From UHGV virus genome UHGV-0322864: a stretch of 40,716 nt of DNA. One strand, written 5' to 3'. The notes beneath the pieces were generated by a model. That model saw only the letters and a list, made by a program, of their open reading frames with translations. It made no database searches and had not been told where the DNA came from. Each line of letters begins with the position of its first letter. The stretch's first letter is position 1. This DNA comes from a virus. The translations under genes and the position numbers were made by a program. This document shows positions 28,595 through 40,716 of this stretch, in pieces.

Positions 28595-28613
28595 TAAGAG
28601 GATTGGAAACGTT

Positions 28614-28953: not shown

Positions 28954-28969
28954 CTAAAGGTTTATTGCT

Positions 28970-29335
28970 ATGTGGTTTATTAAATTCATCGTTAAAATGG
29001 TTGTAGGCTTCTTTCTGGTCGTTCTTCTGTTAGGTGTCCTGTTATCGGCTATGGGTAGCGTTAAGGCTGCAACGTTTTCCCCTGCTACGGTTGACGGGTT
29101 GCAATGTACCTATCTCGTAGAGAATTACGAAACTGGTAAAAAGTCACCTAAAGTTATTATTTTGCATGTAAATGATTTCGATCATGTACAATCATACGAT
29201 AAAACTATTCAACTGGTAAACGAATCCAATGGTAAACAAATCACGGTCGATCACTTGATGCGCTCATCGTTGACGCTCTTTGATGAGTCCATGAATGAAA
29301 TGGCATCCGGTAACGGTCAATGTGTAAATCCATAG
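28970..29335 (+). CDS. membrane or secreted protein (121 aa)
   Basis: N-terminal TM/signal MWFIKFIVKMVVGFFLVVLLLGVLLSAMG; followed by an intrinsic terminator. Confidence 0.5.
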   Translation: MWFIKFIVKMVVGFFLVVLLLGVLLSAMGSVKAATFSPATVDGLQCTYLVENYETGKKSPKVIILHVNDFDHVQSYDKTIQLVNESNGKQITVDHLMRSSLTLFDESMNEMASGNGQCVNP

Positions 29336-29411
29336 GACTAATCTTTCTCCTGTATTGTGCCGTGGTCATGCCTATGGTCATAATCTATCTGATGCTTTAA
29401 ATCCTTCCTGT

Positions 29412-29439
29412 AAGCCTCCTAGTGAGGCTTTTCTATTTT
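29412..29439 (+). terminator. intrinsic terminator closing the first early operon
   Basis: AAGCCTC-CTAGT-GAGGCTT followed by TTCTATTTT. Confidence 0.6.
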
Positions 29440-29596
29440 CTAAGGTGATTGTATCCCTTACTCCCTTTTAGCTCGTTATAGTGCGTTCTAGGCCGCTAAA
29501 TATCGCTTTACAAGCCATTTTCTATGATGTATCACGCGCTCCCGCTCTTTTATCTTCCCTATAGTGAAAAAGTTTAAAATAATTTGCTTTACCCTA

Positions 29597-29624
29597 TTGC
29601 ATAGCCATAAAACTGGCGTATACT
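29597..29624 (+). promoter_or_regulatory. weaker sigma70-like promoter (P0) of the tandem cluster
   Basis: TTGCAT - 16 nt - TATACT. Confidence 0.35.
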
Positions 29625-29722
29625 GATTTCTATCGGGTACGATGTAAAACATACAAGGCAAGGAAACTTGCCCCGCTCTTTAAAAATCAGGCTAGAAAGT
29701 GAAAATATTCTTAAAAAGAGTA

Positions 29723-29751
29723 TTGACACCAGAAAAAGCCTGATATATAGT
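29723..29751 (+). promoter_or_regulatory. consensus sigma70 promoter P1
   Basis: A-rich UP-like TTAAAAAGAG, then TTGACA - 17 nt - TATAGT. Confidence 0.7.
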
Positions 29752-29867
29752 GAGCATAAGTCAGCGATGACGTGAAATATCCCGCTCTTTAAAAACTTAT
29801 CATCTTGCCCTTTCGCATAGATTCAAGCGAGATAAGGGAACGGAATAAAAGAAGATGATAAAAAGAG

Positions 29868-29895
29868 TTGACAAGCTAACACGGTGTGTTAAGCT
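29868..29895 (+). promoter_or_regulatory. sigma70 promoter P2
   Basis: ATAAAAAGAG then TTGACA - 16 nt - TAAGCT. Confidence 0.5.
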
Positions 29896-30024
29896 ACAAA
29901 TGCAGTAACCGCTCTTTAAAAATATGAATCATAAGTTAAGCCTCACCGCTTAATCTTCAATCAAATATAGCTGATTGATATATCCTCCCAATAAGGGGAG
30001 CGACGAAAAAGATTAAAAAAGTGG

Positions 30025-30053
30025 TTGACAGCTAAAACAGCATGATTCATAAT
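30025..30053 (+). promoter_or_regulatory. sigma70 promoter P3
   Basis: ATTAAAAAAGTGG then TTGACA - 17 nt - CATAAT. Confidence 0.65.
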
Positions 30054-30975
30054 GAGCACTCACTAAGCAAATCATCGCGAAGTGAACAGCGTAACAACGG
30101 CTAACAGTTGCATAGTGTGAGAAAGCACACTGATAGATTTACCGCTCTTTAATAATTTAAACATTCTCCTATATCGGTTGAATATGCTTGATGATAATAA
30201 CCATCGGAAAGCATACCAGATAAAACGGTGTAAGATTCTCTAAACTATCAGAGAAAACAATCTTACAATCCCTTGCTGGAAACGTCACCACTGATAAACG
30301 GATTCATTGAGTGTACGCAAAGACTTAAGCTAATCGCCCACGGTTAAGGGTAGCGGCGGTCATCGCTAACAAGGCGCTACAGTGAAAGAAGTTAATCAGG
30401 GTAGGCAAGCCCGAAGAATTAACGCTCAATTGAGAGCGGCGGGGAGTGGTTAAAAAGTGGCAAATTGCTATTTAACAATAAGGTTTAGTGTGAACGTTTA
30501 CGATGTGAACGGCTTGAGATTCATCACAAGATGAAAGTACATAGTCGGTTTATGTAGTAAACTTGCCGAAAGATATAAAACGTCAGAACATTAGACGGTC
30601 AATGACTCTTTCACAATAGCATCCCGTTGTGGGCGATGGCTAGTGATTGAGAGTTGATACAAAAGGATAGGCGAGAGCGAAAGCAAAGTAGACGATATTG
30701 CCGACGGTTACAATAAACGTAACTAATTAGAGTCGGACGCACTGCCTTATTGTGATGATTGATCATCGCTATCAGGTCGGCTTCGTTTATAGCGACTAAT
30801 TAAAGATACCAGATGAAACATCACGGATAAGGGGGCGGCAAGGTTAACTCCTGATAAGACCGCCCCGCTTACCTATAACTACTTAACAACGAGTGGTTAT
30901 AGTTAAGTTAATAGTGACTTAAACAAGCTCATAGAGAGCGGGGCATAGTGCCCTAACAATTGAAAGGTGAATATC

Positions 30976-31875
30976 ATGGCTAAAGTTTTTAATCTGGTAA
31001 AAGAATCTGGTTTTAACGCACTGGCTAACAACATTCGTAGCAATAACGCGGCGATTAAGCAAGATGTTTCTAACTTCCTGTTAGGCCATTTGCAGCACTT
31101 TCGTAGCAACGGCAAGAAGTTAGATGTATTGCAGTCGGCGGTTGATTTTCTGTTAACCGAACGTTTTCGTGATATGGATGTGATCGCCACTGCAATTACT
31201 TTCTTAACTCCTATCAAGTTTAACACCGATGCGGCAAATGGTCGTAAAAAGTGGATTAATCTGGAAGGTGAGGCGAAAGCGAAAGAAGATGCGAAAGAAG
31301 CGCAAATTAAGGCCAAAATGGAACAAAACCGCGCTCGCTGGTCAAACGCTTTCGAAAACTTTGCTTTAGGTCGTGAAATTGAAGTCGATAACCCTAACTT
31401 TTACAAGGGTTGTAATGACAACGTGGCGGCACACCTGCAAATACCGGCGAAAAACAAGGAAGATTTTAATCAGGATATTTACGCTTTAGTTGAACGCTTG
31501 AATGCAATCCGTATTGAAGCCAAATTACTGGCTGATGAGCGCAACGGCGCAACTAGCGATAACACTATCGCCCTGAGTGAAGAAGTTGGGAAGGTTAAAA
31601 AGTCCTTTGATTCACTCATCAAGAAAGTCACGGCCTCAATGGTAGCGATCTCGGATGATTATCTGATGAACGCATCAAGCAAGGAATTAGAATCACTCGA
31701 TTCATACGCTGATGAAATGGAAAAGACTGTTGCAGCTATGCAGGAGAAGTTAGAAAGTCTGCGCGGTCGTATCTCTTCAACGGTTGCTACCCGTACCGAA
31801 CAAGCGGCGAAAGCAGAAGAGGAAGAAGTGTTGCGTAAAGCGGCTGAAATTATGGCGGCACGTCAAGCGGCATAA
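30976..31875 (+). CDS. hypothetical helical protein (299 aa), first gene after the promoter cluster
   Basis: Track begins at GTG 30967; ATG 30976 with SD AAAGGTGA is preferred; coiled-coil-like C-terminal half; followed by a strong terminator. Confidence 0.6.
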   Translation: MAKVFNLVKESGFNALANNIRSNNAAIKQDVSNFLLGHLQHFRSNGKKLDVLQSAVDFLLTERFRDMDVIATAITFLTPIKFNTDAANGRKKWINLEGEAKAKEDAKEAQIKAKMEQNRARWSNAFENFALGREIEVDNPNFYKGCNDNVAAHLQIPAKNKEDFNQDIYALVERLNAIRIEAKLLADERNGATSDNTIALSEEVGKVKKSFDSLIKKVTASMVAISDDYLMNASSKELESLDSYADEMEKTVAAMQEKLESLRGRISSTVATRTEQAAKAEEEEVLRKAAEIMAARQAA

Positions 31876-31897
31876 GTAAGACAATTTAAATAAACAT

Positions 31898-31932
31898 AAG
31901 GCGCTATCTTAACGGGTAGCGCCTTTTCTTTT
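31898..31932 (+). terminator. intrinsic terminator after the 299-aa gene
   Basis: AAGGCGCTA-TCTTAACGG-TAGCGCCTT followed by TTCTTTT. Confidence 0.7.
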
Positions 31933-31986
31933 ATCAGTGCATTGATTCAGTGCATTAATCAAAGAATCTAATCAAAGGTGACGATC

Positions 31987-32205
31987 ATGTTAATTACACA
32001 TACCACGATCTATAGGAATCTTGTCAACGGTCAACATTACCGCCTATCTAAAAAGTATGGCGTTGAATGTAAATGTGTTATTACCGGTGAATGGTATCCG
32101 TCACCAATGAAGATTGAAACGTTGGAACGTGAAGCGATCAGCTATATTATCACGCAAGAAACAACGTTAGGCCGTATCTTAAGAAAGTTGGGATTAAGAA
32201 AATGA
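31987..32205 (+). CDS. hypothetical small protein (72 aa)
   Basis: ATG 31987 with the same AAAGGTGA-N5-ATG initiation region as the 30976 gene. Confidence 0.45.
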   Translation: MLITHTTIYRNLVNGQHYRLSKKYGVECKCVITGEWYPSPMKIETLEREAISYIITQETTLGRILRKLGLRK

Positions 32206-32426
32206 TATTCAGTAGCAATTTTGGCAAGTGTCCTATTTGTGAGAAACATCGCAGCACGGGAAACCATCGCAAATGTAGTAAGATATTACAGCGCCAACGT
32301 GATAACAATCATTGGGATACTGTACACACTAACCAGCGTAAAGAAGAAGTTAGGAAAATGGCTGTTAAAGCGTCATTTGCTCAATCCACCCGTATTGAAC
32401 ATATTCAAAGGTATCAAGCATTATGA
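32202..32426 (+). CDS. small basic Zn-finger-like protein
   Basis: ATGA overlap with the upstream stop; CPICEKHRSTGNHRKC motif; 74 aa. Confidence 0.45.
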   Translation: MIFSSNFGKCPICEKHRSTGNHRKCSKILQRQRDNNHWDTVHTNQRKEEVRKMAVKASFAQSTRIEHIQRYQAL

Positions 32427-32632
32427 TCACTAACATTTCAGAATTTAAGAAAGCACCTTCCCGCTTGTTAGGCCGTCGTGTTGTATATCTTTATAGCAAT
32501 AAAGGTAAATGTACAACCGGACGAATTACAACGGTGAGTAGTGCTAACAAGAAGCTGTTAAAGTTATGCGTGGCTATGGATGATGGTACAATCCTGCTAC
32601 GCAGTTGGAAGTCATTTAGTTTACTCGATTAA
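32423..32632 (+). CDS. hypothetical small protein (69 aa)
   Basis: ATGA overlap with the upstream gene. Confidence 0.45.
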   Translation: MITNISEFKKAPSRLLGRRVVYLYSNKGKCTTGRITTVSSANKKLLKLCVAMDDGTILLRSWKSFSLLD

Positions 32633-32649
32633 GTTATTTGTTCAAGCCT

Positions 32650-32678
32650 GTCGCCTTGATGGGCTTGCCCGATATAAT
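32650..32678 (+). promoter_or_regulatory. possible promoter with perfect -10 TATAAT
   Basis: TATAAT at 32673-32678, 24 nt upstream of the GTG start at 32702; weak -35. Confidence 0.3.
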
Positions 32679-32701
32679 TTATCACTGAAAGGAATAAGAT
32701 T

Positions 32702-33145
32702 GTGGCTAAATCTAAAATCAGCATGAAGGGCGGGCGTTGTTTTGCTATCTCTGAACTAGAGAAAGAGAAATCGAAGGCAACTAATCACGTTAGTAAGCGT
32801 AGTTTAAAACGTCGTGCTGCAAAGGCTGAGGCTGAATCCCATGTTCCTTCCAGTGTGGCAAAACGTGTAGGCCATCGTGTCCATCGTGCTGATGCGTTAT
32901 TATTAGCCGATCATAAACGTTCTTTATTAAAGAGCGGGGGAGCTAAAACAGAAGAAGAGAAGAAGTTAGAAATCTTCTGTAATGGTCGCACCCGTGGTAA
33001 ACAGAAGTTTAAAGGTAGCACGAAAGACCCGCAGGCTTTCCCTAAGACAAGTCAGTGTGCGCCTGATGTTTTCTACGCAGACAGTAAACACAAGTGGGGA
33101 GTTGAAAAATACATTGACCCCATCAAAGAGGCAAGGGTTAAGTAG
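32702..33145 (+). CDS. highly basic K/R-rich protein (nucleic-acid-binding candidate)
   Basis: GTG start with SD GAAAGGAA; 147 aa, about 25 percent K+R. Confidence 0.5.
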   Translation: MAKSKISMKGGRCFAISELEKEKSKATNHVSKRSLKRRAAKAEAESHVPSSVAKRVGHRVHRADALLLADHKRSLLKSGGAKTEEEKKLEIFCNGRTRGKQKFKGSTKDPQAFPKTSQCAPDVFYADSKHKWGVEKYIDPIKEARVK

Positions 33146-33162
33146 TAGGAATATAACCCCCT

Positions 33163-33182
33163 CTTTTAGTACTATGACGCTC
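33163..33182 (+). repeat. copy 1 of 20-nt motif CTCTTTTAGTACTATGACGC
   Basis: Lies 18 nt after the stop of the basic-protein gene; 19/20 identical to the copy at the window end. Confidence 0.6.
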
Positions 33183-33310
33183 TTTCTGTCGCGTCGTGCC
33201 CTCTCCCCATTTGAAGCTTCCGCATAGCCGCCTTTGAGCGGCTTTTGTCGTTGCCGTAAGCGCATTTACGAGTGTTTTTACTGCAATAGTCATGTATTGC
33301 TTTCAGGTTT

Positions 33311-33340
33311 GCCCCGGCTACGGCTGGGGCTTTTTTATGC
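33311..33340 (+). terminator. strong intrinsic terminator
   Basis: GCCCCGGC-TACG-GCTGGGGC followed by TTTTTTAT. Confidence 0.75.
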
Positions 33341-33385
33341 CCGTAAAACAGGAGGTATCAAGTTCTGATAACAACGGCACAGCTA

Positions 33386-33775
33386 ATGTTGACATTGACT
33401 ATTTATTATGAGGCAGGGAATCAGCCAACCGCATGTAAGGCGTTAGTTGCGGATACCGTGATAAATAGAATGGCCCAACGAAAACTGACCGCTGAACAGG
33501 TGATAAGACAAAAGAACCAGTTTGAGTGGATTCCGGTACTATTAAAACAGGAGAAACCTTATAAACGTTATGTAAAGCTGATTCGTGATAAAAATCCGAT
33601 GACTAAGCAAGCCATTGGAGAAAGCGAGCGGCTGGCTAAACGTGCCCTTAAGAAGAATTATGTTCCGCTGTATAGTGGGACTTACTTTCAGAGTAAGAGC
33701 GAAGGGGTGCCAAAATGGTATGCCAATCCTATGTATTGTGGTGATTTAGTGTTCGATAATAGCTCTAGGGAATAA
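33386..33775 (+). CDS. SleB/CwlJ-like cell-wall hydrolase (Hydrolase_2-like) domain protein
   Basis: N-terminal YYEAGNQPTACKALVADTVINRMA resembles the conserved (Y)AEARGE...VA.VI.NR signature; 129 aa; preceded by a strong terminator. Confidence 0.55.
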   Translation: MLTLTIYYEAGNQPTACKALVADTVINRMAQRKLTAEQVIRQKNQFEWIPVLLKQEKPYKRYVKLIRDKNPMTKQAIGESERLAKRALKKNYVPLYSGTYFQSKSEGVPKWYANPMYCGDLVFDNSSRE

Positions 33776-33789
33776 TCACTAGTGCCAGA

Positions 33790-33812
33790 TTTGACAAACT
33801 AAATTCCTTTAT
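33790..33812 (+). repeat. copy 2 of the 22-nt motif (TTGACAAACTAAATTCCTTTAT)
   Basis: Immediately after the SleB-like gene stop, at the 5' edge of the next intergenic region; 19/22 identical to copy 1. Confidence 0.5.
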
Positions 33813-33974
33813 AAACCAACCACTTAGTAAATTTATTGAAAAAGATGGTAGTATTCTGGGACTATAGGTAATGCTCTGTATATAGACCCTTTGAAAATTT
33901 CTTAGAAAATAAGTTTACTAAATATAACTTACTTAAATAATATTACTTTTAATCTCTGATAAAGGGTAAATAAT

Positions 33975-34271
33975 ATGACTTTAGAAGTATATAAATTCCT
34001 TTTTGTAAGCTGTTTAACTATCAGCGTTCTAGGATTTATTGTTCTCAGAAACAAAGCAGCAGGCTGGGAGAGAATGTATAAATCCCTAGTCCGAGTGGAT
34101 AAGATGTATAATGAGAAAGTTAAAGTAACACTCAACGATCTTATTATGCAAGTTGAAGACAGAAACAAACGTCTTCAGAATCTCAATCATGAAGTGTTGC
34201 GCCTTGCTCGTGCTAATGAAGACTTGCGAGTGGCTATTGCTAAGCAGCAGGGGATTAATAGTGAAAGTTAA
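33975..34271 (+). CDS. N-terminal TM plus coiled-coil protein (i-spanin-like or membrane effector)
   Basis: TM FLFVSCLTISVLGFIVL then helical heptad-like NEKVKVTLNDLIMQVEDRNKRLQNLNHEVLRLARANEDLRVAIAK. Confidence 0.5.
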   Translation: MTLEVYKFLFVSCLTISVLGFIVLRNKAAGWERMYKSLVRVDKMYNEKVKVTLNDLIMQVEDRNKRLQNLNHEVLRLARANEDLRVAIAKQQGINSES

Positions 34272-34494
34272 TATTAAGCCTGATCATACTACACTCCGTT
34301 TAAATAACATGAGGCCGGGCGCTCTCTTTCATTTTAAAGGTTCTCTCTATATCAGAACCGGATTAACAACTGACTATCACGTCAATTGTGTTAACGTGGT
34401 TTCTGGAGAGCTTATTGTTATCAGCAAAAACGAAGTCTGCCAAGTGCGCAATGATCTCCACATAACTAACATAGAGGATAAAGATGAAGATTGA
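34261..34494 (+). CDS. small early protein, paralog family member a
   Basis: Track ORF 34153..34494 overlaps the upstream gene; GTG 34261 with SD AGGGGA is in frame and gives a 77-aa product with the family motifs (PGALF...LYIR...CVNVVSGEL). Confidence 0.45.
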   Translation: MKVNIKPDHTTLRLNNMRPGALFHFKGSLYIRTGLTTDYHVNCVNVVSGELIVISKNEVCQVRNDLHITNIEDKDED

Positions 34495-34741
34495 TCTTAA
34501 GGTAAATGAACCGTCATTGTGTGTCGGCGATCTTGTTCTCGGGGATGTATTCCAAATCAGAGAAACACGATCAGATTTCTACATGGTTGTTCAGTTGTTT
34601 TCGTCACAAATCAAGGAAGTTAAACCCTCTGATGGTGGGTGTGTTGTCCTAAGTCTGGCAAATAAAAAAGTCATTAAGCTCAACTCAAAAAGTAAAGTTA
34701 TCCTCGTCCCTGATGTAGTAATTACTAATAAAGGCAAGTAA
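34484..34741 (+). CDS. small early protein, paralog family member b
   Basis: SD AGAGGA; motifs LGDVF, FYMVV. Confidence 0.55.
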   Translation: MKIDLKVNEPSLCVGDLVLGDVFQIRETRSDFYMVVQLFSSQIKEVKPSDGGCVVLSLANKKVIKLNSKSKVILVPDVVITNKGK

Positions 34742-34960
34742 ATGGAAATTAAAGTAGTTGATTATCCTAAATATGCGAATGCAGAAGATGTTAAAGGTGG
34801 TGATGTTTTCTCTTACGATAAACGTTTCTGGCTGATGCTAGAAGATAAAACCCCTGATGGTTTGTGTAAGGCTGCTAACTTGAGCAGTGGTTATGTTGAA
34901 GTCTTCGGCCTATCAACCACTGTTATGCCACGTCCTGATCTTCATGTAACTCAAAAGTAA
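34742..34960 (+). CDS. small early protein, paralog family member c
   Basis: Motifs GGDVF, RFWLML, AANLSSGYV; 72 aa. Confidence 0.55.
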   Translation: MEIKVVDYPKYANAEDVKGGDVFSYDKRFWLMLEDKTPDGLCKAANLSSGYVEVFGLSTTVMPRPDLHVTQK

Positions 34961-34971
34961 GGTAAGTGATT

Positions 34972-35277
34972 ATGTCTGTTTCTTCTTTTGTGATATGTAA
35001 ACCTACTGTAACGATTCGTGCTCAAATGAAACACTGTTCTGGTGTCACTTATCTGGAGTTTAATCACAGTGAGAGCCGATACAACCCCGGATTTACAGTA
35101 GAGATTAAATCTCCGTGGTTTAATATGACATTGTTGCCGGAAGAAGTAGAGTCAGCATGTCGTGGCATTAAGACGGGGAGTTTGAGTCTTCTATCTTCTA
35201 GTTTGGGTGATGAGTTCCTGCCTTTGATTCAGAAAGGTGTGGCTAACGTTCGTAAAATGATGGAATCAGTTAAGTAA
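34972..35277 (+). CDS. hypothetical protein (101 aa)
   Basis: Track starts at GTG 34966; ATG 34972 has better SD spacing (AAGG N9). Confidence 0.5.
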   Translation: MSVSSFVICKPTVTIRAQMKHCSGVTYLEFNHSESRYNPGFTVEIKSPWFNMTLLPEEVESACRGIKTGSLSLLSSSLGDEFLPLIQKGVANVRKMMESVK

Positions 35278-35635
35278 CATCGACTTATAGCCCTTGTGTT
35301 TATCAGAGGGCTATGTGAGGGTGTTCCTCATTAACTTATTAATTCAGGCATATGCCACACCGCTAGGGAGAGCTTGCTCGAACATCCGGTGTTAGACTAA
35401 AACCTGTTAATTTTCGAAAGACTTTCCGATATGTAGGGGTACGTATTGGTTTGGGATTCAGGAGACTTCCTAGGGGTAGGGAGTCTTCACCAGTTGGAAT
35501 AAGAGATAGCTCTAGAACCTGAACTCTTAGGCAGAGAGGGTCGTCAATGAGTACGCGGTCAGAATCAGTCTACTGACTAGGGCTATCCCTTATATCAACT
35601 GGCAATAATGCCTCCACTAACAAAGAGAGATAGGT

Positions 35636-35776
35636 ATGAAAGTATCAACCAAACGTATGAACCGCCCTGAACGTATGGATGCAGTAGCAAATGGTGCTCT
35701 GAAACTGGAAGGCTTCTGGGTTCATGCAATGTCAGCAATCCGTAACAAGCAAGGTAATTGGACCTATGCCGGTTAA
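35636..35776 (+). CDS. possible small protein (46 aa)
   Basis: ATG with SD-like GAGAGATAGG; overlaps the next start; below the track cutoff. Confidence 0.3.
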   Translation: MKVSTKRMNRPERMDAVANGALKLEGFWVHAMSAIRNKQGNWTYAG

Positions 35777-35975
35777 GACAACCCATGTGATAGGTATGCG
35801 AGAGATCATTCGCATTGCCTTGATGGAACACACTGATCGCAACATGCAACTAACTCAAATCTCTAAGTGTCTTAATTGCTCAAGAGATACGGCTAAGGAG
35901 TTAATGTTCGCATTCCTTTATAATGCAGAAGATGAGTTTTTACAAAACCGTCTGCTTGGTTTAAAACAGAAATGA
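35766..35975 (+). CDS. small helix-turn-helix-like protein
   Basis: Internal Met of track ORF 35724..35975; REIIRIALMEHTDRNMQLTQISKCLNCSRDTAKELMF resembles an HTH. Confidence 0.4.
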   Translation: MPVKTTHVIGMREIIRIALMEHTDRNMQLTQISKCLNCSRDTAKELMFAFLYNAEDEFLQNRLLGLKQK

Positions 35976-36055
35976 ATAAAAGGCTGCCCAATCGGGTGGC
36001 CTTTGTTGTTTTAATTAAGGGACAGCTCTTACTTAAACTAACAAGAGGTGCTTAT

Positions 36056-36400
36056 ATGAGACGCATGGTTAAAGATTGGGTAACTAAATCAGGTCTTCGT
36101 GCTGTGATTATGCACATGAACGACTCCCATTTTTGTGGATATGTAGAGCTACCAGACAGCTTAAAACATAAAAACTTCACCGGATATAACGGGAAGGAAG
36201 AAGTTTGTTATGTAAGTGTTCATGGTGGTGTCACATGGCAAGACACCCTTGAAGAGATGGGTGGTTTAAATACAATCGGATTTGATTGTGCCCATGCATG
36301 TGATAAGACACGGTTCAACCCTAACGGGATACCAAGAACAGAAGAGTTCTGCATCAACGAATGCGAACAAATGGCTGAACAACTGAGAGATCTTGAATAA
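36056..36400 (+). CDS. hypothetical protein with His/Cys motifs (114 aa)
   Basis: ATG 36056 with SD AAGAGGTG (track began upstream at 35972); motifs HMNDSHFCGY, VHGGVTW, GFDCAHACD; function not recognised. Confidence 0.5.
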   Translation: MRRMVKDWVTKSGLRAVIMHMNDSHFCGYVELPDSLKHKNFTGYNGKEEVCYVSVHGGVTWQDTLEEMGGLNTIGFDCAHACDKTRFNPNGIPRTEEFCINECEQMAEQLRDLE

Positions 36401-36401
36401 A

Positions 36402-36578
36402 ATGTCTAAGCAAACAATCAAGAATACGCAAGCTGGTTACTCTTATGTCAACTCTCCTTGCTGTGGTGCTCGTGTCAATCTGGTTAAGGAAGAGGTTCGT
36501 ATCGTTCAGCGTGGCGCTACTGTTGTTCGTTCATGCTGTGTCTGTGGTAATGATATTTTTATCAAAGGTAAAGTATGA
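36402..36578 (+). CDS. small Zn-ribbon protein
   Basis: SPCCGARVN ... RSCCVCGNDIF gives a four-Cys ribbon-like arrangement; 58 aa from ATG 36402. Confidence 0.45.
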   Translation: MSKQTIKNTQAGYSYVNSPCCGARVNLVKEEVRIVQRGATVVRSCCVCGNDIFIKGKV

Positions 36579-36826
36579 AAAACTTTCAAGCTGCACCAAT
36601 AACTAAAGTGATTGAAGTTGATGGTGTGATGATGACTGTTCCTCTGAACACTCGTTACATTGCAATTGACAAGATGGGTTATGTATGGGCTTGGAAGATT
36701 AAGCCTAGCTATAACGCACTGTTCGACGAGTTTGTTTGTACTGGTACGTATAGCCCTACATTCTTGGGTTTGTTTGGAGAGTTTGAAGGTAAGTATAAAA
36801 TCATCACTCTCCCTGCTTGTGCTTGA
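36575..36826 (+). CDS. hypothetical small protein (83 aa)
   Basis: ATGA overlap with the upstream gene. Confidence 0.5.
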   Translation: MKNFQAAPITKVIEVDGVMMTVPLNTRYIAIDKMGYVWAWKIKPSYNALFDEFVCTGTYSPTFLGLFGEFEGKYKIITLPACA

Positions 36827-36850
36827 GGTTAATGTGATTTAAACCAGCTT

Positions 36851-36958
36851 TAACGAGAACTCTTAATGAGGATGTATCTTCCCCGCCTTCTAAGCGGTCG
36901 TTAAAGAAGTAATTGGAGTATGCAGGTTCGAGGCCTGTCATCCTCGCTAAGAGTTCTT
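36851..36958 (+). repeat. long imperfect inverted repeat upstream of the HNH gene
   Basis: AACTCTTAATGAGGATG pairs with CATCCTCGCTAAGAGTT (15/17), about 60 nt apart. Confidence 0.5.
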
Positions 36959-36966
36959 GAGGTATT

Positions 36967-37506
36967 ATGAAGCTAGATTTAAGTAAAGCAGTTGTTGATA
37001 AAGGTGTTGGCTATTTGTATGTGTACCAACCAACACACCCTATGGCTAATAAAGCTGGAAAGGTGTATGTTCATAGGTATGTTGCTCAAAATTTCTATGG
37101 TGTCGAACTGAACTCTGACCTAGTGGTTCATCACAAGGATGAGAATAAGTTAAACAATGAGCCATCTAATTTAGAGATCATGACTTATGAGGAGCATAGC
37201 AGGCATCATCATGGGGCTGTTATGGAAGAAAGGTTATGTTCTTTTTGTGGAGAGATTTACCTTGTTTCAGAGAATAGCAACCAAAGGCTTTGCTCACAGG
37301 TTTGCGCCCAATTGGATAGTAGGAGATTTGAGATAACAAAAGAATCTCTTCAATCACTGATAGATACATACCCTGTATATGTAGTAGGACGTCTGTTAGG
37401 TGTTAGTGATGTAGCCATTCACAAAAGATGCAGAAGGCTTGGAGTTGTTAAAAAGCCCCAAGGATTCTGGTTAACCGGAGAAAGACTGAATGAAAAAATT
37501 AAGTGA
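36967..37506 (+). CDS. HNH homing-type endonuclease
   Basis: HNH signature VVHHKDENKLNNEPSNLEIMTYEEHSRHHH, then Cys pairs CSFCGE...CSQVC; 179 aa. Confidence 0.85.
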   Translation: MKLDLSKAVVDKGVGYLYVYQPTHPMANKAGKVYVHRYVAQNFYGVELNSDLVVHHKDENKLNNEPSNLEIMTYEEHSRHHHGAVMEERLCSFCGEIYLVSENSNQRLCSQVCAQLDSRRFEITKESLQSLIDTYPVYVVGRLLGVSDVAIHKRCRRLGVVKKPQGFWLTGERLNEKIK

Positions 37507-37816
37507 TGATGCCATTCAGATGTTAAATGATAGGGCAGAGGAAAGAAAAGATCTTGCTAAGGCTGTTCCGTATTTAGCACCTATTTTATTATTTGTATCC
37601 AGCTTTTACTTTCCAGTTCTTTGGTTTATCACTGGACCTTTGATACTATTTGCTGTGGTTTGGTGTACGTGCAAGTTCACCAAATTTTTATACACAAAAA
37701 GTGTAAAGGTCTATGCAAACGCTAAGAGAGATGGGGAGTTAGATACTCTTGTAGCTGTGATTCTGCTTCTTTCTTTTGTGGCATATCTACTACTAAGCAA
37801 GTGGGGTGTGTTATGA
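37490..37816 (+). CDS. two-TM membrane protein
   Basis: Hydrophobic segments LAPILLFVSSFYFPVLWFITGPLILFAVVWC and LVAVILLLSFVAYLLL; overlaps the upstream stop. Confidence 0.5.
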   Translation: MKKLSDDAIQMLNDRAEERKDLAKAVPYLAPILLFVSSFYFPVLWFITGPLILFAVVWCTCKFTKFLYTKSVKVYANAKRDGELDTLVAVILLLSFVAYLLLSKWGVL

Positions 37817-38109
37817 GTTGGGGTGGTGTAATATCCTTAATCTGTATCTTCATCGTCTGTGTGGCCCTTACAGGCTGCGTACAGAGCCGTCCTGATGGGT
37901 GGTGTGCAGTAGCAGTAAATGGTGCATGTCTATCTACCATTAAAAATGGTAAACCTGTAGCCTCTGGTGATGTTGATATGAGATATGCAGGTATTAAATG
38001 TGTGACTGGATGGAACAGTAAAGAGTGTTCTGGTTCAGTTGAAACTACGGTCAGAGAGTGGGATTATCCTTCAGAGGATAACTCTTCATCTAACGTGAGT
38101 ATTTACTGA
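37813..38109 (+). CDS. Cys-rich lipoprotein (superinfection-exclusion candidate)
   Basis: Signal peptide with lipobox ALTGC (MSWGGVISLICIFIVCVALTGC); five further Cys in the mature part; track start was GTG 37801. Confidence 0.55.
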   Translation: MSWGGVISLICIFIVCVALTGCVQSRPDGWCAVAVNGACLSTIKNGKPVASGDVDMRYAGIKCVTGWNSKECSGSVETTVREWDYPSEDNSSSNVSIY

Positions 38110-38118
38110 GGCGGTAGT

Positions 38119-38361
38119 ATGACAACTCACTACTGGAACACCAAGAAACTTCTGGAAGAAATGAACAGCCAGAGCCATAATCAAATGGTTTCTATGCTTC
38201 GAATGGATGCCAGAGCCTTGCGCTTTCGTATCAAGTGTAAGAAGTTTGACACTGGCGAGTATTACATTCTGAAAGAACGTGTACAGAAAACATTCTTCCT
38301 CCTTTATGGTAGGAAGTTAGGCGTTAATTACGAACATTGGAACACGGATTATGATTATTGA
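38119..38361 (+). CDS. hypothetical small protein (80 aa)
   Basis: SD GAGG upstream of ATG. Confidence 0.5.
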   Translation: MTTHYWNTKKLLEEMNSQSHNQMVSMLRMDARALRFRIKCKKFDTGEYYILKERVQKTFFLLYGRKLGVNYEHWNTDYDY

Positions 38362-38572
38362 TGCAAAAAATGGTGACACTACAGTTGAGATGTCCACCCT
38401 CAAAGATGGGTCTGTATTCAAATGGAACAACGGGTTTTGGGTAAAGACTTCCACTATCTCTTCTGGCTTTCACAAAGCAGTAAACCTACATAACGGTGAG
38501 ATGGATGGGTTTGGACCAACATCCCAAGTGGTCCATATGCCCGAAGCTACACTGACTGGTGTTAATTATTAA
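38351..38572 (+). CDS. small early protein, paralog family member d
   Basis: Motifs DGSVF, GFWVK, AVNLHNGEM; closest to member c. Confidence 0.55.
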   Translation: MIIDAKNGDTTVEMSTLKDGSVFKWNNGFWVKTSTISSGFHKAVNLHNGEMDGFGPTSQVVHMPEATLTGVNY

Positions 38573-38584
38573 TCAGAGGTTGTT

Positions 38585-38719
38585 ATGAAAGTCAAACGTA
38601 TGCTCTTTAGACAGGGGATGTACACCCTCAATGAATACCCAAAAGGTGACACAACCAAGTGGAGTGTTGGGGATTGGATTTCATACATAGACGAGCATGG
38701 TGTCTGGCTTGTGAGTTAA
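38585..38719 (+). CDS. possible small protein (44 aa)
   Basis: ATG with SD GAGG; tightly packed between neighbours; below the track cutoff. Confidence 0.3.
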   Translation: MKVKRMLFRQGMYTLNEYPKGDTTKWSVGDWISYIDEHGVWLVS

Positions 38720-38731
38720 CAAGGAGTTCAT

Positions 38732-38905
38732 ATGAGCTGTTATGGTGGTGGAGAAGTGTATGATGACGATGACATGGAATCCAATGGTACATGTCCTGAT
38801 TGTGGGTGTGAAACTTTTGATGGTGTGTCAGTATACCCTGCCTGTAGTTACTCACCAGTGATCTGTAAAACATGTGGTGATCAGCCATGTGACCAGTCTT
38901 GCTAA
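38732..38905 (+). CDS. possible Cys-rich metal-binding small protein (57 aa)
   Basis: SD AAGGAG; eleven Cys including CPDCGC and CKTCGDQPCDQSC. Confidence 0.35.
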   Translation: MSCYGGGEVYDDDDMESNGTCPDCGCETFDGVSVYPACSYSPVICKTCGDQPCDQSC

Positions 38906-38914
38906 GAGAATATT

Positions 38915-39046
38915 ATGACTGAAGAATTTTTAAAGTGGTTTGGTGATACCTTCAAAGAGTATCTATTCTCTCCAGAAGACCTTGAAGAACTGAAAACCTA
39001 CACTTGGTTGGCTTGGAGAGATAGCCGACGAGAGATGAATAAGTAA
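38915..39046 (+). CDS. possible small protein (43 aa)
   Basis: ATG 10 nt after the upstream stop. Confidence 0.3.
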   Translation: MTEEFLKWFGDTFKEYLFSPEDLEELKTYTWLAWRDSRREMNK

Positions 39047-39057
39047 GAGACGATTAA

Positions 39058-39315
39058 ATGGATTTACTTGATATTTTTATCTCAGTTTACTTTATTGGAG
39101 TATTCCTTTCTGTTTTAGTGCTGAAACTGCTATACAAGAAGGGTTTATTAAAAGGGGTCATTACAACAGGGTCTACCAGCTCTGAACCTGATGAGATGAT
39201 GGTTGTGCTCTTAATTGTGTTGTGGCCTATCTCAATACTGGCAGGAGTTTTTTATCCAATAGGTTGGCTTCTGTTTAAAGCATATGATGCAGTTATGCAT
39301 TTTATCTTTAAGTAA
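39058..39315 (+). CDS. two-TM small membrane protein
   Basis: LDIFISVYFIGVFLSVLVLKLL and MMVVLLIVLWPISILAGVFYPIGWLLF. Confidence 0.5.
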   Translation: MDLLDIFISVYFIGVFLSVLVLKLLYKKGLLKGVITTGSTSSEPDEMMVVLLIVLWPISILAGVFYPIGWLLFKAYDAVMHFIFK

Positions 39316-39733
39316 TATCGTGAAGGATTCTTACGAGAGTCCTTTGAGATAGGACTTCAGATCTCCTATCAAACTAACATTCATGTAACTAGCCCATAAG
39401 GGCGTTACCCTTTAATAACCCAGCCCACTAAGGGGGCGGGAGTTTAGTGCTGGATTAGCATAACGCTTATTCCTACAAAGGCAACCGATTGTTAGATCTT
39501 ACATGCAATATTAATTAATAGGATATGGGAGGGTTCGTCCCCTCCCCCTATTTATAAATTACAGGTATAGCTTATGAGGCTAATTAATGCAGAGCCTACG
39601 GTAAAGCAGTCGCCCGTGGTCGAATGACCGTATGCCCATTGGATGCATTCCTTTGGTGATGGCTAGGGAGTCCGAGCGTAGGTCCGAACCCTACACCTGT
39701 AACCAAATCGAATAACATCTAATTGGAGGATGT

Positions 39734-40045
39734 ATGAAAGCTCGAAGAACTATATGGACTCCGATACAGATTGAAAATCTTCGGAGATTAATCAAAGAGT
39801 ACTCTGTTCAAGAGGTTGCTAAGATTATGAATGTAACGGAGAATGCAGTTAATACAGCTTGCACTAAGTTCGGTATCTCTAGAGCTGTAATCCGAGTTAA
39901 GTGGTCTAAAGAAGAAGACCAGTTCCTTATCCGTAATGCTGGGTTCATGTCTATTCAGAGAATGGCTGACATGCTCGGTAGAAGTTATGCTGCTGTGCAG
40001 AATAGGGCATGTATGCACCTTAACATTAGCCTAAAACTTAAATAG
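39734..40045 (+). CDS. tandem HTH (Myb/SANT-like) DNA-binding protein, putative regulator
   Basis: Two ~45-aa repeats each starting with Trp and carrying an HTH-like core (WTPIQIENLRRLIKEYSVQEVAKIMNVTENAV; WSKEEDQFLIRNAGFMSIQRMADMLGRSYAAVQNR); SD GGAGGA. Confidence 0.55.
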   Translation: MKARRTIWTPIQIENLRRLIKEYSVQEVAKIMNVTENAVNTACTKFGISRAVIRVKWSKEEDQFLIRNAGFMSIQRMADMLGRSYAAVQNRACMHLNISLKLK

Positions 40046-40053
40046 GAATCAAT

Positions 40054-40299
40054 ATGAAGATCATCCCAAAGATTAAAGATAACACTGTTTCACTGGCTAC
40101 AATTATTCCCGGAAACCCTTTCGTAGTTCAGAGAGGAACAGCATCTCCTCAGTATTACATCCGTGTCAGTAACGTGTCCAACAAAATCTCTGTAGAAGAG
40201 GGTTGGATTACGACAGTAAATCTACTGACTGGTGTACTGGGTGTTATGAAAAGTGATGCCCCAGTTGAAGTGATTCGTATGTCTGTGGTTCAGGAGTAA
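40054..40299 (+). CDS. small early protein, paralog family member e
   Basis: Motifs PGNPF, QYYIRV, TVNLLTGVL. Confidence 0.5.
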   Translation: MKIIPKIKDNTVSLATIIPGNPFVVQRGTASPQYYIRVSNVSNKISVEEGWITTVNLLTGVLGVMKSDAPVEVIRMSVVQE

Positions 40300-40306
40300 C
40301 AAGTAG

Positions 40307-40555
40307 ATGAGCACCATTAATATTAAAGTTAAGCATAAGAAAGAGAACATCCTCAGGGTTATGGATTTATTCAGAGCCGACGTCTTTACTTTAAAACAGT
40401 GTCCAACTTCCCATACCTACATGCTAACGAACCCGAGCAATGGTCTTAAGCCCGCTGGGGCGGTTAATCTGGGAACTGGAGAACTTCGGACAATTGCTGG
40501 TGATATGGTTGTTGATGAGAAGTTTAGTAAAGTCGAAATGATCTTAACTCCTTAG
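40307..40555 (+). CDS. small early protein, paralog family member f
   Basis: Motifs ADVFTL, TYML, AVNLGTGEL. Confidence 0.5.
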   Translation: MSTINIKVKHKKENILRVMDLFRADVFTLKQCPTSHTYMLTNPSNGLKPAGAVNLGTGELRTIAGDMVVDEKFSKVEMILTP

Positions 40556-40563
40556 GAAAACAA

Positions 40564-40680
40564 ATGAGACTTAAAGCATATTCTTATGACGATATGATTA
40601 ACCAAAAAGGCTTCGGTCAACGACAGCCTGACGGTTCAATTATCTGGTTCGTAAACGGACAGAAAAAGGTAGCTAAATAA
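40564..40680 (+). CDS. possible small protein (38 aa)
   Basis: ATG 8 nt after the upstream stop; below the track cutoff. Confidence 0.25.
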   Translation: MRLKAYSYDDMINQKGFGQRQPDGSIIWFVNGQKKVAK

Positions 40681-40696
40681 GCCCTCTTCTCTCCTC

Positions 40697-40716
40697 CTTT
40701 TAGTACTATGACGCCT
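40697..40716 (+). repeat. copy 2 of 20-nt motif (TCCTTTTAGTACTATGACGC)
   Basis: Lies ~17 nt after the stop at 40680; preceded by a pyrimidine tract like copy 1. Confidence 0.6.

What the first reader, a model, noticed from the sequence alone, without database searches (positions are those of the whole stretch)
33163..40716. Near-identical 20-nt motif (C/T)CTTTTAGTACTATGACGC downstream of two early-gene stop codons
Seen in sequence: CTCTTTTAGTACTATGACGC at ~33163-33182 and TCCTTTTAGTACTATGACGC at ~40697-40716 are 19/20 identical. Each lies about 17 nt after a plus-strand stop codon and follows a pyrimidine-rich tract; the core TAGTACTA is palindromic. A 20-mer recurring by chance in 40 kb is very unlikely. 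Inference: a promoter for a phage-specific or phage-modified RNA polymerase, a regulator operator, or a homing endonuclease target (an HNH gene is present in the window).
Basis: partly seen in the sequence, partly recalled or inferred. Interest (0 to 1): 0.6.

Follow-up and report, generated by a model that had tools for sequence, protein, structure and literature searches.

The report
Conserved two-copy early-operon signal cassette
The repeated 18-base motif is real: it is the core of a short non-coding cassette (pyrimidine tract, invariant 12-base box, hairpin) kept in exactly two places in the early operon of every phiEco32-like coliphage examined, so it is almost certainly a regulatory signal, but which kind cannot be settled from sequence alone.

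Summary
The window is about half of a Kuravirus (phiEco32-like) podophage genome. The repeat is real: an exact 18-mer at 33163-33180 and 40697-40714, with 0.01 matches expected by chance.

It is the core of a roughly 45-nt cassette: the stop codon of a conserved early gene (a gp120 or gp94 homologue), a pyrimidine tract, the invariant box A(G/C)TACTRTGACG, and a hairpin that starts inside the box.

Both copies are present, co-oriented with early transcription, in all ~17 genomes read from three related groups. Full-genome profile scans add only one weak, probably coding, match inside late gene gp26.

- The TAGTACTA palindrome is not conserved.
- The box is not a gp36-sigma promoter (no AATG).
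- It has no sigma-70 -35 or TG element and does not resemble the phage's own early promoters.
- It is not linked to HNH genes.
- Mosaic breakpoints sit at the cassette edges.
- Copy 1 always precedes two intrinsic terminators that bracket a variable cargo slot.
- The early promoters are each followed by consensus boxA, which implies Nus-dependent antitermination.

Best guess, at low-to-moderate confidence: an RNA-level signal on the early transcript, acting in nut-like read-through or in processing. Rivals are a factor-dependent promoter, a DNA operator, and a recombination linker. The cassette appears undescribed, and transcript-end mapping would decide.

The parts
32702..33148 (+). Homologue of the conserved early gene gp120 (147 aa, pI 10.1, 36 Lys+Arg, ARM-like KRSLKRRAAKAEAE), ending in TAG TAG. 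Copy 1 always follows this gene.
   Evidence: The protein is 80-97% identical across the three groups. PHROG 11641, function unknown. No PDB relative.
33157..33167 (+). Copy 1 (s1): pyrimidine tract CCCCCTCTTTT
   Evidence: Comparable tracts precede most copies.
33168..33179 (+). s1: invariant box AGTACTATGACG (consensus A(G/C)TACTRTGACG)
   Evidence: Alignment A1 of 18 s1/s2 copies: TACT.TGACG is invariant and the preceding A is at least 90% conserved.
33174..33197 (+). s1 hairpin: ATGACGC / loop TCTTTCTGTC / GCGTCGT (7 bp, one G-U pair). The 5' arm is the 3' half of the box.
   Evidence: MFE.: -8.3 kcal/mol, and only 0.9% of tail shuffles give a stem this long. The inner pairs co-vary in relatives.
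33198..33225 (+). C-rich linker GCCCTCTCCCCATTTGAAGCTTCCGCAT, conserved in Kuravirus and KBNP1711 but absent in Bas86
33226..33247 (+). Intrinsic terminator T1 (AGCCGCCTTTGAGCGGCT + TTTT), always found after s1
   Evidence: Annotated as a terminator in WFI101126. Present in Bas86 and KBNP1711.
33248..33310 (+). T1-T2 interval. Here it holds two small hairpins. In other genomes it is a cargo slot carrying inserted genes.
   Evidence: z = -2.9. Compensatory change GCAAUA/UAUUGC versus GCAACG/UGUUGC. Inserts: phiEco32 gp119/118, a small KBNP ORF, and the Bas92 gp128-125 module.
33311..33336 (+). Strong intrinsic terminator T2 (GCCCCGGCTACGGCTGGGGC + TTTTTT) before the gp117 homologue (33386-33775, cell-wall hydrolase)
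40564..40680 (+). Homologue of the conserved early gene gp94 (38 aa). Copy 2 always follows this gene.
40682..40701 (+). Copy 2 (s2): pyrimidine tract CCCTCTTCTCTCCTCCTTTT
   Evidence: conserved in relatives
40702..40713 (+). s2: invariant box AGTACTATGACG
40708..40716 (+). Start of the s2 hairpin 5' arm, cut off by the end of the window. In the 99.5%-identical VTCCBPA_211 it continues GACGCCtctctgtgGGCGGC, then a second hairpin GCGTAGGGAATTCCCTCTACGC, then the RBS and gp93.
29542..30153 (+). Context: five consensus boxA copies, CCGCTCTTT(A/T)A, at 29542, 29673, 29782, 29909 and 30142, each downstream of an early sigma-70 promoter in the non-coding spacer
   Evidence: Three to five copies lie in the same place and orientation in phiEco32, KBNP1711, Paul, Bas92 and Bas86, and nowhere else on the early strand of the two full genomes.

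Best explanation
The 18-mer is the core of a roughly 45-nt cis-acting cassette that was duplicated long ago and is kept by selection at two fixed junctions of the early operon. One copy follows the gp120 homologue and the other follows the gp94 homologue.

I think it works on the RNA. On the long early transcript, the single-stranded box A(G/C)UACURUGACG sits next to a hairpin built partly from the box itself, just downstream of a pyrimidine tract that becomes ribosome-free after the stop codon. Together these form a recognition site for a trans-acting factor. Because the box does not change across diverged phages or between paralogues, that factor is probably a host component.

Early transcription starts at sigma-70 promoters that each carry a consensus boxA, so the elongation complex is already Nus-modified. 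The most likely job of the cassette is to act on that complex, or on its transcript, at module junctions. In the nut-like version, it lets RNA polymerase read through the intrinsic terminators that follow. These are T1 and T2 right after copy 1, and a terminator about 1.2 kb after copy 2. The closely related alternative is endonucleolytic processing or stabilisation of the polycistronic RNA.

Shown here: the cassette anatomy, its conservation, its copy number and orientation, the hairpin with co-varying inner pairs, the terminators, the boxA cluster, and the absence of internal consensus promoters.

Inferred: that it acts as RNA, that a factor binds it, and that the outcome is read-through.
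For: - Exactly two intergenic copies, co-oriented with early genes, in every genome read from Kuravirus, Nieuwekanaalvirus and the Bas86 group.
- The 10-mer TACTRTGACG is invariant while flanks, loops and neighbouring genes differ.
- The hairpin starts inside the box. It has 4-8 bp in all lineages but one, with different loop lengths (5-10 nt).
- The inner pairs change together: GACGC|T..A|GCGTC, GACGC|TC..GA|GCGTC, GACGC|CT..GG|GCGTC. A G-U pair fits only the transcribed strand.
- Both copies lie in untranslated gaps 0-26 nt after a stop codon.
- Copy 1 is always followed by T1 and T2.
- Downstream of T2 there are about 23 kb of early genes, including replication genes. No intergenic sigma-70 promoter of at least 10/12 was found there, and promoter-like hits do not exceed shuffle expectation.
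- Consensus boxA follows each early promoter in all three groups. boxA is the NusB/S10 site of rrn and lambda antitermination (PMC2724277; PMC2800207). rrn-type boxA alone is reported to act on Rho-dependent terminators, whereas read-through of intrinsic ones in lambda needs N and boxB.
- Promoter features were tested and not met.
Against: - There are no transcript data, and the key phiEco32 transcription paper (Pavlova 2012) is not held.
- The hairpin is lost in copy 1 of KBNP1711 and Bas89, so it may not be essential.
- The loop, which is the recognition element of lambda boxB, is not conserved.
- The pyrimidine tract lacks the G that NusB/S10 need. It resembles the defective boxA5 mutant.
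- The boxA-like CGCUCUUUC in the copy 1 loop is not shared by copy 2.
- The first terminator of the operon (31898-31925) lies upstream of both copies.
- Copy 2 is not directly followed by a terminator.
- No N-like protein is identified. gp120 is basic and adjacent, but its model is uninformative (pLDDT 54).
- The -10-like TAnnnT inside the box is invariant, as a promoter would require.
- A 12-nt asymmetric invariant box also fits a DNA-binding protein.
Confidence: 0.33

Rival explanations
1. RNA processing or stability site. A host or phage endoribonuclease cuts the early polycistronic RNA in the single-stranded box just 5' of the hairpin. This separates the gp124-gp120, gp117-gp94 and gp93-gp69 segments, much as the RNase III sites do in T7 early RNA. 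The hairpin would then cap the new 5' end, and the cut would remove the anti-SD-like pyrimidine tract.
For: - Intergenic position at block boundaries, directly after stop codons.
- A single-stranded A/U-rich box followed by a hairpin.
- The MFE fold of copy 2 pairs the CCUCCUUUU tract with the gp93 Shine-Dalgarno AAGGA, so a cut could unmask translation.
Against: - Stems of 4-8 bp are far too short for RNase III.
- The box has no good RN|WUU RNase E site (my own reading of the sequence).
- Known RNases do not need a 12-nt invariant sequence.
- No phage ribonuclease was recognised among the early proteins scanned.
Confidence: 0.15
2. Factor-dependent promoter. TACTRT would be a -10 hexamer (T-12, A-11, T-7 invariant) used by host RNA polymerase together with an unknown phage early protein, giving delayed-early transcripts for the gp117 and gp93 blocks.
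For: - TAnnnT is invariant in all copies.
- Both copies stand upstream of gene blocks.
- In Bas86 and ECBP2, copy 2 lies only about 45 nt before an RBS and ATG.
- No other promoter is evident downstream of T2.
Against: - There is no -35 and no TG extension, and the sequence upstream of about -22 is mosaic.
- It is unlike the phage's own early promoters.
- It lacks the AATG required by gp36.
- Copy 1 would transcribe straight into T1 and T2, 45-150 nt away.
- The 5' arm of the conserved hairpin (GACGC) would lie at -6 to -2 and would not be transcribed, leaving the co-varying hairpin unexplained.
- These sites are not among the promoters listed for SU10 or phiEco32.
Confidence: 0.15
3. DNA operator. 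The asymmetric 12-bp box is bound by a sequence-specific DNA-binding protein, phage or host, that blocks or modulates transcription at two points of the early operon. A weaker site may lie in gp26.
For: - A contiguous invariant 12-mer is typical of a protein site.
- A profile built from s1 and s2 finds a third match in gp26: 16.3 bits, E = 0.0014, with 0 of 600 shuffled genomes reaching that score.
- A small double-HTH protein is encoded 650 nt upstream of copy 2.
Against: - The palindrome is not conserved.
- The double-HTH protein is absent from Bas86, which keeps both copies.
- A DNA site explains neither the hairpin with its G-U pair nor the strict co-orientation with transcription.
- The gp26 match carries a synonymous change at an invariant box position in Bas86 (ACG to ACA).
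Confidence: 0.12
4. Recombination linker. The cassette persists mainly as a short homology patch at which gene modules are exchanged between co-infecting phages, like the PeSL cassettes of T4-type phages. It would have little or no regulatory role of its own.
For: - In 21 of the 60 records listed (79 matched), similarity to the window starts exactly at the first T of the 18-mer (query position 19), with different genes upstream.
- Similarity ends right after T1 in phiEco32.
- The T1-T2 interval carries different cargo in different phages.
- Bas89 combines a KBNP-type copy 1 with a Kuravirus-type copy 2.
- The 5' flanks of the two copies look homogenised within genomes: TTTTAG in both Kuravirus copies, T(G/T)CAAC in both KBNP copies.
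Against: - 10-18 nt of identity is very short for homologous exchange.
- Only two copies exist, at fixed positions, whereas PeSLs are many.
- Strict invariance of a 10-mer with free variation around it, plus a maintained hairpin, points to a sequence-specific function. Mosaicism may be a consequence of that rather than the reason for it.
Confidence: 0.1
5. Target site of the HNH homing endonuclease encoded in the window.
For: An HNH gene is present at 36967-37506.
Against: - The sites lie 3.2-3.8 kb from that gene.
- They are present in genomes with no HNH gene annotated in the early region read (WFI101126, LAMP, KBNP1711) and in genomes with HNH genes elsewhere.
- Homing sites are normally disrupted or absent in endonuclease-carrying genomes.
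Confidence: 0.02

Closest known systems
Lambda-type nut sites (boxA, spacer, boxB hairpin) and rrn antiterminator leaders
   Same: - Two sites per genome, transcribed and co-oriented with the operon.
- Placed in an untranslated gap just after a stop codon and ahead of terminators.
- A short single-stranded conserved element followed by a 5-bp-class hairpin.
- The same phages carry consensus boxA after their early promoters.
   Different: - The invariant box is unrelated to boxA.
- The pyrimidine tract lacks the essential G.
- The hairpin loop is variable.
- The sites are 3 and 10 kb from the promoters.
- No N-like protein is identified.
- The phage is virulent and not lambdoid.
PeSL promoter/stem-loop cassettes of T4-type phages (PMC2839356, PMC4122927)
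   Same: A small conserved non-coding cassette with a stem-loop, lying at the borders of variable gene cargo in the early region. Recombination breakpoints fall at its edges.
   Different: PeSLs contain a bona fide sigma-70 early promoter and occur in many copies. Here there is no -35 and only two copies at fixed places.
RNase III processing sites between the early genes of T7
   Same: Paralogous intergenic elements in a host-polymerase-made polycistronic early RNA, with conserved sequence around a hairpin (from general knowledge).
   Different: T7 sites are roughly 20-bp double-stranded structures with an internal loop. These stems have 4-8 bp.
gp36-dependent middle and late promoters of phiEco32 (tAATGTAtA)
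   Same: A single short conserved element without an obvious -35, in the same phage group.
   Different: The sequence is different: the AATG contacted by gp36 is missing. The location is inside the early region. These sites are not among the six mapped promoters or the SU10 list.
ops / RfaH-type non-template-strand signals
   Same: A roughly 12-nt invariant, orientation-dependent element inside long operons, in very few copies per genome (from general knowledge).
   Different: There is no similarity to GGCGGTAGCGTG, no NusG or RfaH paralogue was recognised, and the G-10 of the pause consensus is not conserved in the KBNP and Bas86 variants.

Membership tests
gp36 (phiEco32 sigma) promoter | AATGTA centred near -11.5, with A-14, A-13, T-12 and G-11 contacted by gp36 | tested here: not met
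   The box AGTACTRTGACG and its flanks contain no AATG. Definition from PMC12276001 and PMC4281155.
Sigma-70 promoter | -10 hexamer with T-12, A-11 and T-7 | tested here: met
   TACTAT or TACTGT is invariant in all copies.
Sigma-70 promoter | -35 hexamer 16-18 bp upstream, or a TG extension | tested here: not met
   The consensus scan reports nothing at either site. By eye the best -35 candidates match at most 2/6, -15/-14 is TA (Kuravirus) or AA (KBNP), and the upstream DNA is mosaic.
Sigma-70 promoter | Resemblance to the phage's own early promoters (A-tract, TTGACA, N17, TATAGTgagca, then boxA) | tested here: not met
Lambda-type nut site | boxA CGCUCUU(U)A with the essential G | tested here: not met
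   The upstream tract is CCCUCUUUUA or CUCCUUUUA, without the G, like the defective boxA5 mutant (G35U). The copy 1 loop has CGCUCUUUC (7 of 8 core positions), but copy 2 and KBNP copy 1 do not.
Lambda-type nut site | boxB hairpin with a conserved loop bound by an ARM-type N protein | tested here: inconclusive
   A hairpin is present in most copies, but the loops differ. The adjacent gp120 is basic with an ARM-like stretch, yet it has no detectable homology, and its model has pLDDT 54.
Lambda-type nut site | Confers terminator read-through in cis | not testable with these tools
   Needs reporter or in vitro transcription assays.
PeSL-type mobile regulatory cassette | Composite early promoter plus stem-loop | tested here: not met
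   The stem-loop is present, but the promoter part is not met.
PeSL-type mobile regulatory cassette | Copies flank variable ORFs, and recombination breakpoints fall within them | tested here: met
   Breakpoints lie at the left edge of the box and after T1. Cargo in the T1-T2 slot is variable. Bas89 is a hybrid.
Intrinsic terminator | GC-rich hairpin immediately followed by a U tract | tested here: not met
   The cassette hairpin is followed by GUGCCC or CCCAAU, and the scan does not call it. T1 and T2 downstream of copy 1 do meet the definition.
Homing endonuclease target | A site next to the endonuclease gene's insertion point, intact only in genomes lacking that gene | tested here: not met
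Any Rfam RNA family | Covariance-model match | tested here: not met
   No credible match in 27000-40716 at E up to 10.
RNase III site | About two helical turns of double-stranded RNA | tested here: not met
   Stems have 4-8 bp.

The most novel reading that the evidence does not exclude
The box-plus-hairpin would be a new kind of elongation-control signal used by virulent phiEco32-like podophages. It would be a host-factor-recognised RNA (or non-template-strand) element that co-operates with rrn-type boxA leaders to carry host RNA polymerase through intrinsic terminators over a 25-kb early operon, without a lambda N/boxB system. The two copies would define the immediate-early to delayed-early boundaries.
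Probability: 0.15. Interest if true: 0.75.

Novelty: new variant of a known kind. Interest (0 to 1): 0.45.

Why it matters
phiEco32 is a model for phage control of host RNA polymerase through gp36 and gp79, and its relatives are used in phage therapy. How its 25-kb early operon is transcribed through several terminators has not been explained in the papers I could reach.

A strictly conserved two-copy signal at the operon's internal junctions, together with consensus boxA after every early promoter, gives a concrete and testable model for early-gene timing. If the box binds a host factor, it would be a new handle on elongation control.

The cassette and the T1-T2 slot also mark where these phages swap accessory genes. 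That is useful for engineering them.

Tried and rejected
- **Chance repeat:** rejected by shuffles and by conservation.
- **More copies:** relaxed pattern scans and an nhmmer profile over the full phiEco32 and Bas86 genomes found only the gp26 match. I treat that match as doubtful because Bas86 has a synonymous ACG-to-ACA change there and the stretch codes for a conserved TVTE peptide.
- **IMG/VR exact-pattern scan:** it returned eight unrelated contigs, but there the 16-mer lies inside a roughly 1-kb ORF on the opposite strand, so this is a coding coincidence.
- **Rfam:** nothing.
- **Small-RNA idea** (motif as promoter, T1 as terminator, C-rich seed): the linker is missing in Bas86, and no antisense target longer than 11 nt exists in the phage.
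- **Mini-ORF starting at the RTG inside the box:** there is no Shine-Dalgarno, and both frame and length vary (5, 12, 17, 20 or 28 codons), so I rejected it (read).
- **Frameshift or bypass at UUU UAG:** this applies only to genomes with an extra ORF upstream of copy 1, and not to copy 2.
- **Other sigma factors:** sigma-54, sigma-32, sigma-E, LexA and CRP half-site resemblances all fail on spacing or on conservation across variants.
- **Match to E. coli genomes:** none.
- **gp99 double-HTH protein as partner:** absent from Bas86.
- **gp26:** no Pfam or PDB relative, so there is no hint of a virion RNA polymerase.
- **RNAalifold on a MAFFT alignment:** it gave no structure because the 3' arms are out of register. 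I used a direct stem search with shuffles instead.
- **Metagenome scan with gp120:** it added eight loci but no new cassette type.
- **Literature:** Pavlova 2012 and Savalia 2008 are not held.

Full report
**What the window is.** Megablast of 32000-40716 matches 112 phage records, almost all Escherichia and Shigella phages of the phiEco32 group: 76-78-kb podoviruses of the genus Kuravirus, subfamily Gordonclarkvirinae. The closest match is VTCCBPA_211, at 99.5% over the last 417 bases. The window is about half a genome. Late structural genes lie on the minus strand (1-27300). The early genes lie on the plus strand from about 27400 to the window end.

In phiEco32, early genes 69-128 are transcribed by host sigma-70 polymerase. 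Middle and late genes use the phage sigma factor gp36, whose promoters carry tAATGTAtA (PMC4281155; PMC12276001).

**The observation.** The exact shared run is 18 nt, CTTTTAGTACTATGACGC, at 33163-33180 and 40697-40714. Shuffles give 0.01 expected matches, and none gives two. Each copy follows a stop codon by 16-17 nt and a pyrimidine tract.

**Copy number and distribution.** The complete phiEco32 genome has exactly two copies, orthologous to those in the window. One lies between gp120 and gp119 and has one change, TACTGT. The other lies between gp94 and gp93.

A 70-nt query around copy 1 finds 79 phage records, never with more than two places per record. Apart from one borderline partial match to a Bacillus phage (E = 0.5), all are in this phage group.

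I read both sites in genomes from three groups:
- Kuravirus: WFI101126, Paul, LAMP, ev_rybdy3, VTCCBPA_211, NJ01-like, Bas92, ECBP2, plus IMG/VR and metagenome contigs.
- Nieuwekanaalvirus KBNP1711, and the hybrid Bas89.
- The more distant Bas86 group.

This covers. Every genome has both copies, on the early strand. Copy 1 (s1) follows the gp120 homologue, in some genomes with one small extra ORF in between. Copy 2 (s2) follows the gp94 homologue.

gp120 occurs only in these roughly 98 records. The pattern also hit eight unrelated IMG/VR contigs, but there it sits inside a 1-kb ORF on the other strand, so that is coincidence.

**Anatomy.** Alignment of 18 copies shows TACT-R-TGACG invariant, with a conserved A two or three bases upstream. 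The consensus is A(G/C)TACTRTGACG.

The palindrome TAGTACTA is specific to Kuravirus. KBNP1711 has CAACTACTG and Bas86 has CAACTACTA or AGCTACTA. Upstream there is usually a pyrimidine tract, GCCCTCTTCTCTCCTCC-like.

Downstream there is a hairpin whose 5' arm is the 3' half of the box (RTGACGC):
- 7-8 bp in Kuravirus s1, KBNP s2 and Bas86 s1.
- 5-7 bp in Kuravirus s2.
- 4 bp in Bas86 s2.
- None in KBNP/Bas89 s1.

Loops of 5-10 nt differ in sequence. The inner pairs change together (T-A, TC-GA, CT-GG/AG). One pair is G-U on the transcribed strand. So the hairpin is maintained in single-stranded nucleic acid of the sense strand, while the box itself is constrained beyond pairing.

Beyond the hairpin the two copies diverge. 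After s1 comes a C-rich linker (absent in Bas86), then intrinsic terminator T1 (33226-33247), a variable interval, and the strong terminator T2 (33311-33336) before the gp117 homologue. After s2, in Kuravirus and KBNP, comes a second hairpin and then the gp93 RBS. In Bas86 and ECBP2 an RBS and a different gene follow directly.

**Mosaicism.** In 21 of the 60 records listed, similarity to the window begins exactly at the first T of the 18-mer, with different sequence or an extra ORF upstream. In phiEco32, similarity ends right after T1, where gp119/gp118 are inserted.

The T1-T2 interval holds two small hairpins here. One of them shows a compensatory change relative to WFI101126. In KBNP1711 the interval holds a small hydrophobic ORF, in Bas86 small ORFs, and in Bas92 the whole gp128-125 module.

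Bas89 has a KBNP-type s1 and a Kuravirus-type s2. So the cassette sits at recombination junctions, and s1 with T1 and T2 brackets a cargo slot.

**What it is not.**
- It is not a gp36 promoter. gp36 reads A-14 A-13 T-12 G-11, and no AATG is present. The sites are absent from the SU10 promoter and terminator table.
- It is a poor sigma-70 promoter. It has only a TAnnnT hexamer, with no -35 and no TG, variable DNA upstream, and no likeness to the phage's own early promoters. If TACTRT were the -10 element, the conserved 5' arm of the hairpin would not be transcribed.
- It is not an intrinsic terminator, an RNase III site or any Rfam family.
- It is not tied to HNH genes.
- The double-HTH protein encoded at 39734-40045 is missing from Bas86, so it cannot be an obligatory partner.
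- No antisense partner exists in the phage, and no match exists in E. coli genomes.
- The RTG in the box does not start a conserved ORF.

**Context found on the way.** The 1.6-kb non-coding spacer that holds the early promoters contains five copies of CCGCTCTTT(A/T)A (29542-30153). This is consensus boxA: rrn UGCUCUUUA and lambda CGCUCUUA. Each copy lies downstream of a TTGACA...TATAGT-type promoter.

Three to five copies lie in the same place and orientation in phiEco32, KBNP1711, Paul, Bas92 and Bas86. On the early strand of the two complete genomes there are none elsewhere. No paper in the library links these phages with boxA.

The early strand carries at least five intrinsic-terminator-like sites, and no intergenic consensus promoter downstream of T2. 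So the 25 kb of early genes appear to depend on read-through by a Nus-modified polymerase.

According to the literature read here, rrn-type boxA suppresses Rho-dependent terminators. Read-through of intrinsic ones in lambda needs N and boxB as well. That leaves room for a second signal.

**A possible third copy.** A profile of s1/s2 finds one more match in phiEco32, at 27930-27950 inside late gene gp26: GCCTTCTTCTAGTACTGTGACGG, co-oriented with that gene, 16.3 bits, E = 0.0014. None of 600 shuffled genomes reaches that score.

The core is kept in gp26 of KBNP1711, Bas88 and Bas87. But it encodes a conserved TVTE peptide, and Bas86 has a synonymous ACG-to-ACA change at an otherwise invariant box position. 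I regard it as probably coding similarity, but I cannot exclude a function. It lies outside the window.

**Mechanism.** The facts to explain are these:
- an invariant asymmetric 12-mer;
- a maintained sense-strand hairpin that overlaps it;
- a position in untranslated gaps just after stop codons;
- strict co-orientation with transcription;
- exactly two fixed sites in a long terminator-studded operon whose promoters carry boxA.

I think an RNA-level recognition signal on the early transcript explains these best. The invariance across diverged phages and paralogues suggests a host partner. The most likely outcome is nut-like read-through of downstream terminators, with processing of the polycistronic RNA as the close alternative.

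Weak points are the missing hairpin in one lineage, the variable loop, the lack of a true boxA in the cassette, and the absence of an identified N-like protein. gp120 is basic, conserved and adjacent, but its model is uninformative.

A factor-dependent promoter, a DNA operator and a pure recombination linker remain possible. I give the RNA-signal read-through model about one chance in three. Counting the processing variant, I give RNA-level action in general about one in two.

**Comparison and novelty.** The cassette works most like a nut site in placement and architecture, and like a PeSL cassette in its evolutionary behaviour. It fails defining tests of both: no functional boxA or conserved loop, and no promoter (see the membership table).

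I found no description of it in the papers available. The two primary phiEco32 papers could not be read, so prior mapping cannot be excluded. I rate it as a new variant of a known kind (a phage early-operon cis-regulatory cassette), with moderate interest. The boxA cluster may be the more immediately useful finding.

Noticed in passing
window 29542-30153 (+), copies at 29542, 29673, 29782, 29909 and 30142: There are five copies of consensus boxA, CCGCTCTTT(A/T)A, each 10-90 nt downstream of an early sigma-70 promoter in the non-coding spacer. Three to five copies lie in the same place and orientation in phiEco32, KBNP1711, Paul, Bas92 and Bas86, and none elsewhere on the early strand of the two full genomes. 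This implies Nus-factor (NusB/S10) antitermination of early transcription in a virulent, non-lambdoid phage. No paper in the library links these phages with boxA.
   Followed up: partly
phiEco32 locus L004 27930-27950 (+), inside late gene gp26 (outside the window); Bas86 26965-26984: A third, partial match to the cassette (pyrimidine tract plus TAGTACTGTGACG, then a hairpin GGAAGA/TCTTCC), co-oriented with its gene. It scores 16.3 bits, E = 0.0014, and none of 600 shuffled genomes reaches that. The core is conserved in gp26 of three other groups, but it codes for TVTE, and Bas86 has a synonymous change in the box.
   Followed up: partly
window 33248-33310, between terminators T1 and T2: This interval is a cargo slot. 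Here it holds two small hairpins, with a compensatory change relative to WFI101126 (GCAAUA/UAUUGC versus GCAACG/UGUUGC). The fold of 33200-33345 has z = -2.9. In phiEco32 the interval holds gp119/gp118, in KBNP1711 a small hydrophobic ORF, and in Bas92 the relocated gp128-125 module.
   Followed up: partly
window 33349-33388: A perfect Shine-Dalgarno AGGAGG at 33349-33354 has no ATG, GTG or TTG at normal spacing. The ATG annotated in relatives for the gp117 homologue (33386) lies 31 nt further on, without an SD. An in-frame CTG lies 9 nt after the SD. The true start of this cell-wall hydrolase gene may be misannotated.
   Followed up: no
window 36827-36967: ARAGORN finds no tRNA anywhere in the window, although relatives carry a tRNA-Arg at the corresponding place, just before an HNH gene in Paul. 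Here the 141-nt gap before the HNH gene (36967-37506) contains a T-arm-like CAGGTTCGAGGCCTG but does not align with the phiEco32 or Paul tRNA. It may be a replaced or degraded tRNA gene.
   Followed up: partly
window 39734-40045 (+): A 103-aa protein with two helix-turn-helix units (sigma-70 region 4-like, PF08281; PHROG 323 'D5-like regulator'). It is present in Kuravirus and KBNP1711 but absent from the Bas86 sequence read (1-74150 of 76140 bp).
   Followed up: partly
window 35278-35724 and 39316-39734 (+): Further long non-coding gaps (about 420-450 nt) lie inside the early operon. The second contains a GC-rich hairpin GGGAGGGTTCGTCCCCTCCC (39527-39546) that is also seen in phiEco32. Their function was not examined.
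   Followed up: no
window 32982-33227 (+): An 81-codon alternative-frame ORF overlaps the end of the gp120 homologue and runs through copy 1 up to T1. It is not conserved: phiEco32, LAMP and others have a stop five codons after the box RTG. It is probably spurious.
   Followed up: yes
loci L033 (Bas89) 16822-17424 and L036 (Bas86) 15434-16742: In these relatives the COOH-NH2 ligase gene is annotated as two joined pieces with an HNH endonuclease gene inside, which looks like an intron or intein-like insertion. Bas86 shows the same arrangement for a spanin gene.
   Followed up: no
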